From the NCBI RefSeq assembly GCF_003334315.1, contig NZ_QOWR01000034.1: a stretch of DNA of 49,379 nucleotides. One strand, written 5' to 3'. The position numbers and the translations under genes are program-made. Positions 1,334 to 35,564 of the stretch are shown piece after piece. Every line of letters begins with the position of its first letter. Position 1 is the stretch's first letter. The stretch is from Escherichia coli. Its GTDB lineage: Bacteria > Pseudomonadota > Gammaproteobacteria > Enterobacterales > Enterobacteriaceae. A model generated the notes under the pieces. It did no database searches, had not been told where the DNA came from, and saw nothing but the letters and a program-made list of their open reading frames with translations.

Positions 1334-3763
1334 ATGACATTAACAAGACGTGAATTTATTAAACACAGCGGTATTGCCGCTGGAGCGCTGGTGGTGACAT
1401 CGGCAGCACCGCTCCCCGCATGGGCAGAAGAGAAGGGCGGTAAAATCCTCACCGCGGGACGTTGGGGAGCGATGAACGTAGAAGTGAAGGACGGCAAGAT
1501 TGTTTCTTCAACAGGCGCGCTGGCGAAAACCATACCGAATTCCTTACAGTCTACGGCGGCGGATCAGGTACACACCACGGCGCGTATTCAGCATCCGATG
1601 GTGAGAAAAAGCTATCTCGATAATCCACTGCAACCGGCGAAAGGTCGTGGCGAAGATACCTATGTACAGGTGAGCTGGGAACAGGCATTAAAACTGATTC
1701 ATGAGCAACATGATCGTATTCGTAAAGCTAACGGACCATCGGCCATTTTTGCCGGATCTTACGGCTGGCGCTCTTCTGGCGTGTTGCATAAAGCGCAAAC
1801 CTTACTGCAACGTTATATGAACCTGGCGGGCGGTTATTCCGGGCATAGCGGCGATTATTCAACCGGGGCAGCACAGGTGATCATGCCGCATGTGGTCGGT
1901 TCTGTAGAGGTGTATGAACAGCAGACCTCCTGGCCGCTGATTCTGGAAAACAGCCAGGTTGTGGTGCTGTGGGGAATGAACCCGCTGAATACCTTAAAAA
2001 TTGCCTGGAGCAGTACCGATGAGCAAGGGCTGGAATACTTCCATCAGCTGAAAAAATCTGGCAAACCAGTGATTGCCATTGATCCTATCCGCTCCGAAAC
2101 CATCGAATTCTTTGACGATAATGCCACCTGGATCGCGCCGAATATGGGCACCGACGTGGCACTGATGTTAGGGATTGCGCATACCCTGATGACACAAGGC
2201 AAACACGATAAAGTGTTCCTTGAAAAATACACTACCGGGTATCCGCAGTTTGAAGAGTATCTGACAGGTAAGAGCGATAATACGCCGAAGAGCGCGGTCT
2301 GGGCGGCGGAAATTACTGGCGTACCGGAAGCGCAGATAGTCAAACTCGCTGAACTGATGGCGGCGAATCGCACAATGCTGATGGCAGGCTGGGGAATTCA
2401 GCGCCAGCAATATGGTGAACAGAAACACTGGATGCTGGTGACGCTGGCGGCGATGTTAGGGCAGATTGGTACACCAGGCGGCGGTTTTGGTTTCTCTTAT
2501 CATTACTCCAACGGTGGCAACCCGACGCGTGTTGGCGGCGTGCTGCCGGAAATGTCTGCGGCGATTGCCGGACATGCCAGCGAGGCCGCTGATGATGGCG
2601 GAATGACGGCGATTCCTGTTGCCCGTATCGTCGATGCGCTGGAAAATCCTGGCGGCAAATATCAGCATAACGGTAAAGAACAAACGTATCCGAATATCAA
2701 AATGATCTGGTGGGCGGGTGGCGGTAACTTTACCCATCACCAGGATACTAATCGTCTGATTAAAGCATGGCAGAAACCGGAGATGATCGTCGTTTCTGAA
2801 TGCTACTGGACCGCAGCAGCCAAACACGCAGATATCGTATTACCGATCACCACATCGTTTGAGCGCAATGACTTGACGATGACCGGTGATTACAGCAACC
2901 AGCATATTGTGCCGATGAAGCAGGCTGTTGCTCCGCAATTTGAAGCGCGTAACGATTTTGACGTGTTTGCCGATCTTGCGGAATTACTCAAACCTGGCGG
3001 AAAAGAGATCTATACCGAAGGTAAAGATGAAATGGCGTGGCTGAAATTTTTCTATGATGCCGCTCAGAAAGGTGCCCGTGCGCAACGCGTCACTATGCCA
3101 ATGTTTAATGCCTTCTGGCAGCAAAATAAACTGATCGAAATGCGCCGCAGCGAGAAGAACGAACAGTACGTTCGTTATGGTGATTTCCGCGCCGATCCGG
3201 TGAAAAATGCGCTGGGTACGCCAAGCGGCAAAATTGAAATCTATTCAAAAACGTTGGAAAAATTTGGCTATAAGGATTGCCCGGCACACCCAACCTGGCT
3301 GGCTCCTGATGAATGGAAAGGTACCGCCGACGAGAAGCAGTTACAGCTTCTGACCGCACATCCGGCACACCGTTTACACAGTCAGCTTAACTATGCGGAA
3401 CTGCGTAAAAAATATGCGATCGCCGATCGTGAACCAATCACTATTCACACCGAAGATGCTGCACGCTTTGGTATTGCGAATGGCGATCTGGTGCGTGTCT
3501 GGAACAAACGTGGTCAGATTTTGACAGGCGCGGTGGTGACTGACGGGATCAAAAAAGGCGTGGTATGCGTGCATGAAGGTGCATGGCCAGATCTGGAAAA
3601 TGGCTTGTGTAAAAACGGCAGTGCGAACGTGTTAACGGCGGATATCCCCAGCTCGCAGCTGGCAAATGCCTGTGCCGGTAACTCAGCGTTGGTGTATATC
3701 GAAAAATATACGGGCAATGCACCGAAGTTAACGGCGTTTGATCAGCCAGCTGTTCAGGCGTAA
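1334..3763 (+). CDS. torZ: Periplasmic molybdoenzyme, trimethylamine-N-oxide reductase 2 (TorZ/BisZ)
   Basis: Start moved from track ATG 1316 to ATG 1334, which has GGAGG upstream. Twin-arginine signal [15 protein letters not shown], 809 aa, immediately downstream of torY. Confidence 0.93.
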
Positions 3764-3814: not shown

Positions 3815-3912
3815 GCCTGATGCGCTATGCTTATCAGGCCTACATAGTCCCTGCAATATATTGAATTAGCAAGGTTTTGTAGGCCGGATAAGGCGTTCAC
3901 GCCGCATCCGGC
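3815..3912. repeat. BIME: two inverted REP elements between convergent torZ and cmoB
   Basis: GCCTGATGCGCTATGCTTATCAGGCCTACA (3815-3843) and GTAGGCCGGATAAGGCGTTCACGCCGCATCCGGC (3879-3912) match the REP consensus. Confidence 0.8.
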
Positions 3913-12981: not shown

Positions 12982-13995
<1,014 letters not shown>

Positions 13996-13999
13996 GTCG

Positions 14000-14320
14000 G
14001 ATTGGTCGCTCGCGCCGCATCCGAAATTGGCAGTGTGCCTGATGCGACGCTATTCGCGTCTTATCCGGCCTACCAGAGATAGCGAACCGTAGCTCGGATA
14101 AGGCGCTCGCGACGCATCCGACATTGGCAGTGTGCCTGATGCGACGCTATTCGCGTCTTATCCGGCCTACGAGAGATAGCGAACCGTAGGTCAGATAAGG
14201 CGCTCGCACCGCATCCGACATTGGCAGTGTGCCTGATGCGACGCTGTTCGCGTCTTATCAGGCCAGCCAGAGATAGCGAACCGTAGGTCGGATAAGGCGC
14301 TCGCGCCGCATCCGACAAAT
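14000..14320. repeat. Tandem BIME cluster: three 97-bp units made of alternating REP palindromes
   Basis: GCATCCGA recurs at 14017, 14114, 14211 and 14308 (exact 97-bp period); each unit holds GCCTGATGCGACGCT...GCGTCTTATC(C/A)GGCC and CGGATAAGGCGCTCGCG REP motifs. Confidence 0.85.
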
Positions 14321-14335
14321 GTGTTCAGCGATAGA

Positions 14336-15121
14336 TTAGCTGGCCTGCTTTTTCATCATACTGAGAATAAATAACAGTGCCGCACATAGCACCACCGACG
14401 GACCCGCCGGCGTATCGTAAACCGCGGAAAAGGTTAAACCGCCAGTCACTGCCACCATCCCCACCAAAACAGCGACACCAGCCATCTGTTCCGGCGTGCG
14501 GGCAAAGCGACGCGCAGTAGCAGCAGGAATAATCAGCAACGAAGTAATAATCAACGCACCGACAAATTTCATCGCTACACCAATCGTCAATGCCGTCACC
14601 AGCATCAATAACAATTTCACGCGCTGTAATTTCACACCATCAACAAACGCCAGATCCGGGCTAATCGTCATCGACAGCAAATTGCGCCATTGCCAGAACA
14701 AAATAGCCACCACGATGACCACGCCAATGGCGATGGAGATGAGATCTTCCGGCGTCACTGCCAGCAAATCACCGAACAAGTAAGCCATCAAATCAACACG
14801 AATATTAGACATCAGACTAACGACCACCAGGCCCAGCGACAGGGCACTGTGCGCCATAATCCCTAATAACGTGTCGATCGCCAGCTGTGGACGCTTCTCC
14901 AGCCATACCAGACCGCCCGCCAGCAGCAGCGTAACGGCAATCACCGCATAGAATGGATTCACGTCCAGCAACAAACCAAACGCGACGCCAAGTAATGAGG
15001 CATGAGCCAGCGTATCACCGAAATAAGACATACGACGCCAGACTACAAACGAACCCAGCGGACCCGCGGCACAGGCGAGCATGATCCCGGCTAACCAACC
15101 GGGAAATAATAATTCAATCAT
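14336..15121 (-). CDS. znuB: High-affinity zinc ABC transporter permease
   Basis: 261-aa polytopic membrane protein; start overlaps the znuC stop (ATGA at 15118-15121). Confidence 0.95.
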
Positions 15122-19402: not shown

Positions 19403-19436
19403 GTAGGCCGGATGTGGCGTTTTCGCCGCATCCGGC
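19403..19436. repeat. Single REP element between lpxM and pykA
   Basis: GTAGGCCGGATGTGGCGTTTTCGCCGCATCCGGC matches the REP consensus. Confidence 0.75.
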
Positions 19437-28527: not shown

Positions 28528-28612
28528 TGGCGGATGCGGCGCGAGTGCCTTGTCCGCCCCAGAACGCACCACAATCGTAGGCCTGAGAAGACGCAACAGC
28601 GTCGCATCGGGC
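28528..28612. repeat. Degenerate REP pair (BIME-like) in the yebF-yebE intergenic region
   Basis: GGCGGATGCGGCGCGAGTGCCTTGTCCGCC and GCCTGAGAAGACGCAACAGCGTCGCATCGGGC are both REP-like palindromes. Confidence 0.6.
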
Positions 28613-35241: not shown

Positions 35242-35328
35242 AACATTTAAGCTGATGACCACCGCGCTTTTTATTGACCATTTTGCACGCAAACTGGAAA
35301 ACCTGGCGTCGTCATCTATTCTTAAAGG

Positions 35329-35431
35329 GCAAGGCAACTAAGCCTGCATTAATGCCAACTTTTAGCGCACGGCTCTCTCCCAAGAGCCATTTCCCTGGAC
35401 CGAATACAGGAATCGTGTTCGGTCTCTTTTT
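35329..35431 (+). ncRNA. sdsR: Small regulatory RNA SdsR (RyeB), sigma-S dependent
   Basis: Recalled SdsR sequence matches (GCAAGGCAACTAAGCCTGCATTAATGCC...CGGTCTCTTTTT). A sigma-S-type -10 (TCTATTCTT, 35315-35323) sits upstream and a GC stem plus U-run ends at about 35431. Confidence 0.75.
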
Positions 35432-35564
35432 ATCTGTTAAAAGCCAGAAGCATTTCCTTCGCTGACTTTATAGTCAACCATAACACACACTCTACTGTCT
35501 GAGTCCAGCGTTTTTTAACATTCTTGTTAAGATTATGTGATCTTTAGCGCGGAGGAAAATATTG

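What the first reader, a model, noticed from the sequence alone, without database searches (positions are those of the whole stretch)
14000..14320. Three exact 97-bp tandem BIME units between ruvB and znuB
The period is exactly 97 bp, defined by GCATCCGA at 14017, 14114, 14211 and 14308, with only a few substitutions between units. That is an unusually regular REP array between the convergent ruvAB and znuCB operons. Such arrays can bind IHF and gyrase and stabilise upstream mRNA, and copy number often varies between strains. The track's 82-aa ORF at 14070-14318 lies wholly within the repeats.
Basis: partly seen in the sequence, partly recalled or inferred. Interest (0 to 1): 0.3.

Follow-up and report, generated by a model that had tools for sequence, protein, structure and literature searches.

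The report
Expanded BIME-2 REP array, ruvB–znuB
This is an ordinary, already catalogued E. coli repeat (a BIME-2 array of alternating Y and Z2 REP hairpins) between ruvB and znuB, here in a three-unit allele of a locus whose unit number varies between strains.

Summary
Positions 13990-14317 carry 3.4 head-to-tail copies of a 97-bp unit with no indels and 91% matches. Full units differ at 8-11 of 97 positions, so the period is exact but the copies are not identical.

Each unit is a Y-type REP on the minus strand, an 11-nt linker, a Z2-type REP on the plus strand, and a 15-nt linker. That gives seven REPs (Y Z2 Y Z2 Y Z2 Y), the architecture that defines BIME-2.

The K-12 allele has one full unit (three REPs). 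It is listed as a BIME-2 with gyrase cleavage sites in a published Topo-seq table.

Across 5,426 complete E. coli genomes, about 72% carry 1.4 units, 8% carry 2.4 and 7% carry 3.4 (this window, also BL21). One genome carries 5.4. About 10% have IS1397 inserted in the Z2 loop. Some B2 strains carry an IS621 left-end remnant in a Y REP.

There is no IHF consensus, because IHF binding belongs to BIME-1, not BIME-2. The 82-aa ORF is an artefact: the 97-bp unit shifts the frame, the ORF is absent from K-12 and IAI39, PGAP does not call it, and it is not in a 15-billion-protein collection.

Known element, low interest.

The parts
12985..13995 (+). ruvB coding sequence. Its stop codon TAA (13993-13995) lies inside the tail of the first REP.
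   Evidence: ORF list. PGAP annotation of strain 14EC001, identical over the 1001-nt query 13700-14700.
13990..14317 (.). BIME-2 array: 3.4 units of 97 bp, seven palindromic units in the order Y Z2 Y Z2 Y Z2 Y.
13992..14025 (-). PU1, a degenerate Y-type REP (71% to Y consensus). Its GTAG tail is changed to GTAAG and supplies the ruvB stop codon.
   Evidence: The RNA hairpin starts 2 nt after the stop codon and is weak (-13.5 kcal/mol, z -0.7).
14037..14073 (+). PU2, a Z2-type REP (89% to Z2 consensus) with a Y-like tail ATCCGGCCTAC.
   Evidence: RNA hairpin -18.8 kcal/mol, z -3.9.
14089..14122 (-). PU3, a Y-type REP (80%).
14134..14170 (+). PU4, a Z2-type REP (92%).
14186..14219 (-). PU5, a Y-type REP (80%).
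14231..14267 (+). PU6, a Z2-type REP (89%). Its tail CTAC is mutated to CAGC.
   Evidence: The Rfam naRNA4 hit at 14189-14264 covers PU5 and PU6.
14283..14316 (-). PU7, a Y-type REP (86%), identical to the znuB-proximal Y REP of K-12. By my coordinate arithmetic, the published K-12 gyrase cleavage sites fall in its loop, near 14301-14302.
   Evidence: RNA hairpin on the znuB transcript -19.2 kcal/mol, z -3.2.
14026..14036 (.). Head-to-head linker ATTGGCAGTGT (AATTGGCAGTGT in unit 1), repeated at 14123-14133 and 14220-14230. It is short and holds no IHF site.
14074..14088 (.). Tail-to-tail linker CAGAGATAGCGAACC, repeated at 14171-14185 and 14268-14282.
14070..14318 (-). 82-aa ORF with a TTG start: a by-product of the repeats, not a gene.
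14336..15121 (-). znuB coding sequence. Its stop codon lies 18-19 nt from the head of PU7.

Best explanation
The region is a BIME-2, a tandem array of REP hairpins in which Y-type and Z2-type units alternate in opposite orientation. It sits in the shared 3' intergenic region of the convergent ruvAB and znuCB operons. It is an expanded allele (three full 97-bp units plus a closing Y REP, seven REPs) of the locus that holds three REPs in K-12.

Shown:
- The identity and architecture of the element.
- Its polymorphism in whole-unit steps.
- Its use as a landing site by the REP-targeting elements IS1397 and IS621 in other strains.
- Gyrase cleavage of the K-12 allele, from the literature.

Inferred:
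- The array grows and shrinks by out-of-register recombination or replication slippage between units, possibly helped by the REP-associated transposase TnpA-REP (RAYT).
- On DNA, the Y REPs act as transcription-independent gyrase sites. The expanded allele offers four Y REPs instead of two.
- On RNA, the hairpins serve both converging transcripts as 3' exonuclease barriers and partial terminators. No intrinsic terminator is present in the intergenic region.
- The first REP starts 2 nt after the ruvB stop codon, which is within the 15-nt range reported to lower translation of the upstream gene.
For: Architecture. The REP consensus sequences used for typing are printed in PMC11208160.

BIME-2 definition (Y plus Z2, short linker, tandem copies, copy number varying between strains): PMC3333891.

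The K-12 allele is listed as 'BIMEs2 ... 126 bp ... znuB>-<ruvB' with 2, 2, 0 and 2 gyrase cleavage sites under Cfx, RifCfx, Micro and Oxo. Sites at 1947071-72 lie 15-16 bp from the interval start (PMC6379681 supplement). The same paper reports that gyrase prefers Y REPs and their loops, and that BIME-2 signals rise under rifampicin.

Copy-number alleles: record spans of 807, 904 and 1001 and of 537, 634, 731 and 925.

Mechanism of expansion: TOK-001 has units u1 u2 u3* u2 u3. Its SNP pattern places one crossover between unit positions 63 and 77.

IS1397 sits in the Z2 loop with TGT duplicated on both sides.

Structure: the whole array folds with z -6.1 on the plus strand and -7.1 on the minus strand.

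No intrinsic terminator was found between the genes.

General REP roles as partly Rho-dependent terminators and mRNA stabilisers, and higher expression of convergent gene pairs with a REP: bioRxiv 10.64898/2026.03.23.713779.

The 15-nt rule for translation: Liang et al. 2015 as described in PMC12306157.
Against: No functional data exist for this allele. The gyrase data are for the K-12 three-REP allele only, and placing those cuts in the Y loop rests on my own coordinate arithmetic.

The first REP is degenerate and folds weakly in the ruvB mRNA (z -0.7), so a translational effect may be negligible.

REP effects on mRNA half-life are not uniform genome-wide.

About 72% of genomes carry a single full unit and 10% carry an IS inside the array. 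This argues that the extra units are not under strong selection.

The tail-to-tail linker could not be matched to the canonical s, l or r motifs.
Confidence: 0.95

Rival explanations
1. The array is a selfish or neutral repeat. The extra units are REPIN-like doublets amplified by TnpA-REP (RAYT) or by slippage, with no function at this locus beyond what a single REP would give.
For: Unit number is highly polymorphic, and the single-unit allele predominates at about 72%. IS insertions are tolerated in about 10% of genomes. Published in vitro work shows TnpA-REP cleaving and recombining BIMEs and proposes models of tandem amplification. Each Y/Z2 pair folds as one long imperfect hairpin, -43 kcal/mol, z -3.5.
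Against: This reading is compatible with, not exclusive of, the best explanation. The first and last REPs, and the overlap with the ruvB stop codon, are conserved in every allele inspected. Gyrase cuts the K-12 allele in vivo.
Confidence: 0.4
2. The units encode naRNA4-like small RNAs that bind HU and compact the nucleoid, as was proposed for REP325.
For: Rfam RF02564 (naRNA4) matches every unit. The unit at 14189-14264 (+) scores 61.1 bits against a gathering score of 59.5.
Against: The match comes from the Y and Z2 hairpins, which are common to all BIME-2 elements, and the linker differs. The other units score 52, 45 and 37 bits, below threshold. [quoted passage not shown]
Confidence: 0.05
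3. The 82-aa ORF (14070-14318, minus strand) is a real small-protein gene.
For: It is an open frame of 82 codons.
Against: It has a TTG start with no Shine-Dalgarno sequence in the 30 nt upstream. The 97-bp unit is not a multiple of 3, so every change in unit number shifts the frame. The ORF is absent from K-12 and IAI39, truncated and altered in O157, and duplicated in TOK-001. PGAP does not call it in 14EC001, whose sequence is identical over 13700-14700. The exact sequence is absent from a collection of about 15 billion proteins.
Confidence: 0.01
4. It is an IHF-binding BIME (RIB/RIP, BIME-1 type).
Against: There is no WATCAANNNNTTR, WATCARNNNNTTR or even TCAANNNNTT anywhere in 13980-14340 on either strand. 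The head-to-head linker is 11 nt, not the long L motif. The REPs are Z2, not Z1. IHF sites belong to the L linker of BIME-1. A BIME-1-like element elsewhere in the window (3815-3912) does have a long linker, which holds a one-mismatch IHF core by my own reading of the sequence printed.
Confidence: 0.02

Closest known systems
The K-12 znuB-ruvB BIME-2 (126 bp, three REPs), as listed in Sutormin et al. 2019, Table DS3
   Same: Same locus and same flanking genes. The first Y REP over the ruvB stop codon differs at one position in its head (CCGGC in K-12, CCGAA here). The last Y REP is identical. Same type of linkers.
   Different: The window has two extra 97-bp units: seven REPs against three, and an intergenic region of 340 bp against 146 bp. 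The internal unit of K-12 also differs by several substitutions in the linker and the Z2 tail.
REP325 / naRNA4 (the yjdM-yjdN BIME-2; Rfam RF02564)
   Same: Tandem units, each holding one Y and one Z2 hairpin. One unit here passes the Rfam gathering score.
   Different: REP325 has six units and lies within an operon between co-directional genes. Its head-to-head linker differs in sequence and is 2 nt longer. The proposed nucleoid role of REP325 is now disputed.
BIME-1 / RIB / RIP elements
   Same: A pair of inverted REPs in an extragenic 3' region, including a Y REP.
   Different: BIME-1 is single-copy and uses Z1 rather than Z2. It has a long, conserved L linker that carries an IHF site. None of these features is present here.
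REPINs (REP doublets mobilised by RAYT transposases)
   Same: Two inverted REPs that can fold into one long hairpin. E. coli encodes a RAYT, TnpA-REP, that acts on BIMEs in vitro.
   Different: REPINs are described as dispersed doublets. Here the doublet is amplified in tandem at a fixed locus. The presence of RAYT in this strain was not checked.

Membership tests
BIME-2 | The component palindromic units match the E. coli REP consensus and are of the Y and Z2 types. | tested here: met
   Minus-strand units are 71-86% identical to Y. Plus-strand units are 89-92% identical to Z2 and have the extended GACGC...GCGTC stem that separates Z2 from Z1. Random 42-mers from the window average 46%. Consensus sequences are from PMC11208160.
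BIME-2 | Y and Z2 alternate in inverted orientation, head-to-head then tail-to-tail. | tested here: met
   The order is Y(-) Z2(+) Y(-) Z2(+) Y(-) Z2(+) Y(-).
BIME-2 | A short head-to-head linker (S) in place of the long L linker. | tested here: met
   The linker is 11 nt, ATTGGCAGTGT, with no IHF core. Its match to the S consensus itself could not be checked.
BIME-2 | The tail-to-tail flanking motif is of type s, l or r. | not testable with these tools
   The 15-nt linker CAGAGATAGCGAACC is conserved between units. The motif consensus sequences were not in any held text.
BIME-2 | Occurs as tandem copies, with copy number varying between strains at a given locus. | tested here: met
   1.4, 2.4, 3.4 and 5.4 units were seen among 5,426 genomes.
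BIME-2 | Conserved GTAG/CTAC tetranucleotide at the REP tail. | tested here: met
   Present in 5 of 7 units. PU1 has GTAAG, which provides the ruvB stop codon, and PU6 has CAGC.
BIME-2 | Preferential cleavage by DNA gyrase in vivo. | not testable with these tools
   Published for the K-12 allele: 2 sites with ciprofloxacin, 2 with rifampicin plus ciprofloxacin, 2 with oxolinic acid. Not measured for the expanded allele.
BIME-1 / RIB (IHF-binding) | Z1 plus Y separated by a long L linker with an IHF site, in single copy. | tested here: not met
   The units are Z2, not Z1. The linker is 11 nt. No IHF consensus is present. The element is tandem, not single.
Rfam RF02564 naRNA4 | Covariance-model score at or above the gathering threshold of 59.5 bits. 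| tested here: inconclusive
   One unit scores 61.1 bits. The others score 52.0, 45.4 and 37.5 bits. The alignment shows that the score comes from the two REP hairpins, not the linker. Expression and HU binding were not testable.
Protein-coding gene (82-aa ORF) | Reading frame conserved in orthologous loci, with a plausible translation start. | tested here: not met
   Absent or altered in four of five other alleles. No Shine-Dalgarno sequence. Not annotated. Not in the protein collection.

The most novel reading that the evidence does not exclude
Unit number at this BIME-2 (1.4 to 5.4 units) could act as a heritable dial. It would change how much gyrase loads at the junction of an SOS operon (ruvAB) and a Zur-regulated operon (znuCB). 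It would also change how strongly the two converging mRNAs are terminated and protected. In addition, the stop-codon-overlapping first REP could hold down RuvB translation. Strains would then differ in RuvAB or ZnuBC output without any change in promoters or coding sequence.
Probability: 0.12. Interest if true: 0.35.

Novelty: already known. Interest (0 to 1): 0.1.

Why it matters
It matters little as a discovery. BIME-2 arrays, their copy-number polymorphism, gyrase cleavage and use as IS targets have been described since the 1990s, and the K-12 allele of this locus already appears in a published BIME-2 table.

It is useful for annotation. The region should be marked as a repeat, the 82-aa ORF should not be called, and IHF binding should not be assumed.

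The locus is also a compact natural series for anyone testing whether REP copy number tunes 3'-end processing or gyrase loading between convergent operons. It offers 1.4, 2.4, 3.4 and 5.4 units, an IS1397-disrupted form and an allele with an IS621 remnant.

Tried and rejected
- **Scan of genome contigs** for the tail-to-tail linker 17-mer GAGATASCGAACCGTAG. It returned 13 single hits in unrelated phyla and none in Escherichia, although ATCC 11775 contains the 17-mer. I cannot explain this and drew no conclusion about other species.
- **Papers not held.** Liang et al. 2015 (PMC4427526), Clément et al. 1999 (PMC94167) and Choi et al. 2003 (PMC166490) were unavailable. Their findings are cited only through papers that describe them.
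- **Supplement of the 2026 REP preprint.** The held part does not mention ruvB. It lists znuB only in a differential-expression table that is unrelated to this array.
- **Timed-out script.** A first fuzzy-regex REP scan timed out and was replaced by Hamming scans.
- **Synthetic nine-unit query.** It ranks genomes confusingly, because BLAST joins many overlapping pieces. I therefore read unit number from the span in each record, not from coverage.
- **Readings rejected:** intrinsic terminator (none in the intergenic region), IHF site, coding ORF, and a CRISPR-like array (there are no variable spacers, because both linkers repeat with the unit).
- **Source strain.** 14EC001 matches the 1001-nt query exactly. 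It is out of register with the window after about 35.5 kb and differs in the first 500-nt block. Its annotation is used only for about 500-35,500.

Full report
**1. Observation**

Tandem Repeats Finder reports one array at 13990-14317, with period 97, 3.4 copies, 91% matches, no indels and score 558. An independent repeat search gives three in-register copies spaced exactly 97 and 97.

The three full units differ pairwise at 8, 9 and 11 of 97 positions. A 37-nt partial fourth unit ends the array at 14317. "Exact" therefore applies to the period, not to the copies.

The flanking genes are ruvB (12985-13995, +) and znuB (14336-15121, -), followed by znuC. The two operons converge on the array. 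The 82-aa ORF at 14070-14318 (-) is real as an open frame.

**2. Anatomy**

Each unit consists of four pieces:
- a 34-nt palindromic unit on the minus strand, for example 14089-14122;
- an 11-nt head-to-head linker, ATTGGCAGTGT;
- a 37-nt palindromic unit on the plus strand, for example 14134-14170;
- a 15-nt tail-to-tail linker, CAGAGATAGCGAACC.

The minus-strand units are Y-type, at 71-86% identity. The plus-strand units are Z2-type, at 89-92%, with the extended GACGC...GCGTC stem that Z1 lacks. Random 42-mers from the window average 46% to their best consensus. The Z2 core pattern occurs three times in the window, all in the array, against 0.02 expected.

The order is Y Z2 Y Z2 Y Z2 Y, seven units in all. 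This is the published definition of BIME-2: Y plus Z2, a short linker, tandem copies, and a copy number that varies between strains. Copies at one locus are described as well conserved (PMC3333891).

Three details are worth recording:
- The first Y unit is degenerate. Its GTAG tail reads GTAAG and supplies the ruvB stop codon (CCG TAA), so the REP overlaps the end of ruvB.
- Two Z2 units carry a Y-like tail (ATCCGGCCTAC), which leaves a T·C mismatch in the stem.
- The third Z2 unit has lost its CTAC tail.

**3. Structure**

The whole array folds far better than shuffled controls on both strands, with z -6.1 and -7.1.

On the ruvB transcript, the Z2 units form the stable hairpins (about -19 kcal/mol, z -3.4 to -3.9). 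The inverted Y units are weak (z -0.2 to -0.7).

On the znuB transcript, both unit types that were tested fold well: PU7, a Y unit, at z -3.2, and PU6, a Z2 unit, at z -4.4.

A whole Y/Z2 pair can also fold as one long imperfect hairpin of -43 kcal/mol. No sigma-70-like promoter and no intrinsic terminator is predicted in the intergenic region.

**4. Other strains**

All 5,426 complete E. coli genomes hold the locus. I read unit number from the span matched in each record, in two evenly spaced samples of the ranking. These give 98 rows, of which 3 are not matches at this locus:

| Allele | Rows | Notes |
|---|---|---|
| 1.4 units | 71 | includes K-12 derivatives, ATCC 8739, IAI39 |
| 2.4 units | 8 | includes O157:H7 |
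| 3.4 units | 7 | this window, 14EC001, BL21-AI |
| split by an insertion | 10 | |
| 1.4 units plus a 70-bp insert | 1 | |

The top-ranked genome, TOK-001, has 5.4 units. Its SNP pattern reads u1 u2 u3* u2 u3. Unit u3* carries the u3 substitutions up to unit position 63 and the u1-type sequence from position 77 onwards. This is the signature of a single out-of-register exchange between units 3 and 1, that is, unequal crossing-over or slippage by two units.

In the one split allele I inspected (strain 2/0), the insertion is IS1397. It sits in the loop of the Z2 unit, with TGT duplicated on both sides. IS1397 is known to insert specifically into palindromic units of BIMEs. That the other split rows carry IS1397 is inferred from the same match pattern.

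B2 strains such as ATCC 11775 and UM146 carry about 66 nt of foreign sequence in the tail of the znuB-proximal Y unit. The intergenic region is 70 bp longer than in K-12. This sequence is identical to the outer 66 nt of the left end of IS621, as seen next to an annotated IS621 transposase in another genome. IS621 is the REP-targeting bridge-RNA recombinase. The locus is thus a recurrent landing site for two unrelated REP-specific insertion sequences.

**5. Function**

*Gyrase.* Sutormin et al. 2019 list the K-12 allele as "BIMEs2, 126 bp, znuB>-<ruvB", with 2, 2, 0 and 2 cleavage sites under ciprofloxacin, rifampicin plus ciprofloxacin, microcin and oxolinic acid. Sites at 1947071-72 lie 15-16 bp from the interval start. 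If the interval starts at the head of the znuB-proximal Y unit, which fits the arithmetic 146 = 18 + 126 + 2, these cuts fall in the loop of that Y unit. It is identical to PU7 here, so the equivalent positions are about 14301-14302. This mapping is my inference. It agrees with the paper's statement that gyrase prefers Y units and their loops, and that BIME-2 sites are transcription-independent. The expanded allele has four Y units where K-12 has two.

*IHF.* Its site belongs to the L linker of BIME-1. The array has no IHF core consensus, even relaxed.

*RNA roles.* REPs are reported to act as partly Rho-dependent terminators and as mRNA stabilisers. Convergent gene pairs with a REP show higher expression of both genes. 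With no intrinsic terminator here, the array is the only structured element available to both transcripts. This is an inference.

*Translation.* REPs within 15 nt of a stop codon are reported to lower translation of the upstream gene (Liang et al. 2015, as described). PU1's stem starts 2 nt after the ruvB stop codon, so ruvB qualifies by distance. The hairpin is weak, however. On the znuB side the REP starts 18-19 nt from the stop codon, outside that range.

*naRNA4.* Rfam RF02564 matches every unit, and one match exceeds the gathering score. The alignment shows that the score comes from the two REP hairpins, while the linker differs. The nucleoid role proposed for the founding member, REP325, is contradicted by a 2026 preprint.

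**6. The ORF**

A unit of 97 bp is one more than a multiple of three, so each gain or loss of a unit shifts the frame.
- The ORF is absent from K-12 and IAI39, truncated and altered in O157, replaced in ATCC 11775, and duplicated in TOK-001.
- It starts with TTG and has no Shine-Dalgarno sequence upstream.
- PGAP does not annotate it in 14EC001, whose sequence is identical over 13700-14700.
- The exact sequence is absent from a collection of about 15 billion proteins.

It is a by-product of a GC-rich repeat that happens to lack stop codons.

**7. Verdict**

There are two corrections: IHF binding does not apply to this BIME type, and the regularity is normal for BIME-2. The element is already known in kind, and the locus itself is catalogued. 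What is specific to this window is the three-unit allele, found in roughly 7% of complete genomes. Interest is low.

Noticed in passing
L005:575-660 (E. coli ATCC 11775, ruvB-znuB intergenic region); also L003:2530-2620: B2-phylogroup alleles carry about 66 nt of foreign sequence in the tail of the znuB-proximal Y REP, and the intergenic region is 70 bp longer than in K-12. The insert is identical to the outer 66 nt of the IS621 left end, including the start of the bridge-RNA region. It is flanked by direct repeats of TATCCGACCT. It ends at ...CCGTATC, exactly where intact IS621 continues into its target-binding-loop sequence GGGCCTTGG. This looks like a deletion remnant of a REP-targeted IS621.
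   Followed up: partly
L003:1100-2500 (strain 2/0); about 10% of complete genomes, including ST131: IS1397 is inserted in the loop of the Z2 REP of this BIME, with TGT duplicated on both sides of the insertion. The allele is common in the population, not a rare event.
   Followed up: partly
L004:501-1040 (strain TOK-001): A 5.4-unit allele whose SNP pattern (u1 u2 u3* u2 u3) places a single unequal exchange between unit positions 63 and 77, inside the 3' arm of a Z2 REP.
   Followed up: yes
window 3815-3912: A BIME-1-like element between torZ and cmoB: Z1 REP (+), a 35-nt linker with a near-consensus IHF core (CAATATATTGAAT, my reading of the printed sequence), then Y REP (-). Rfam ES036 (CssrF) sRNA matches the linker at 3836-3878 (-) above its gathering score.
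   Followed up: partly
window 19403-19436 and 28529-28612: A single Y-type REP between lpxM and pyk, and a diverged REP pair between yebF and yebE.
   Followed up: no
window 35291-35435: The overlapping antisense sRNA pair SraC/RyeA (-) and SdsR/RyeB (+) is detected by Rfam well above threshold. Just downstream, near 35.5 kb, the window goes out of register with strain 14EC001, so an indel lies near pphA.
   Followed up: no
window 1334-3763: In the near-identical strain 14EC001, torZ is annotated as a pseudogene with an internal stop. Whether the window shares the stop was not checked.
   Followed up: no
window 14063-14073, 14160-14170 (+); 14186-14196, 14283-14293 (-): REP tails in the array resemble the 11-nt IS621 target ATCAGGCCTAC. 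The two plus-strand sites (ATCCGGCCTAC) differ only at position 4, the position where a mismatch is reported to be tolerated. The minus-strand sites differ at two positions, and 14283-14293 is the site occupied by the IS621 remnant in B2 strains.
   Followed up: partly
Genome-contig collection: An exact scan for a 17-mer present in E. coli ATCC 11775 returned no Escherichia hit, only 13 matches in unrelated phyla that I take to be chance. The reason is unknown.
   Followed up: no
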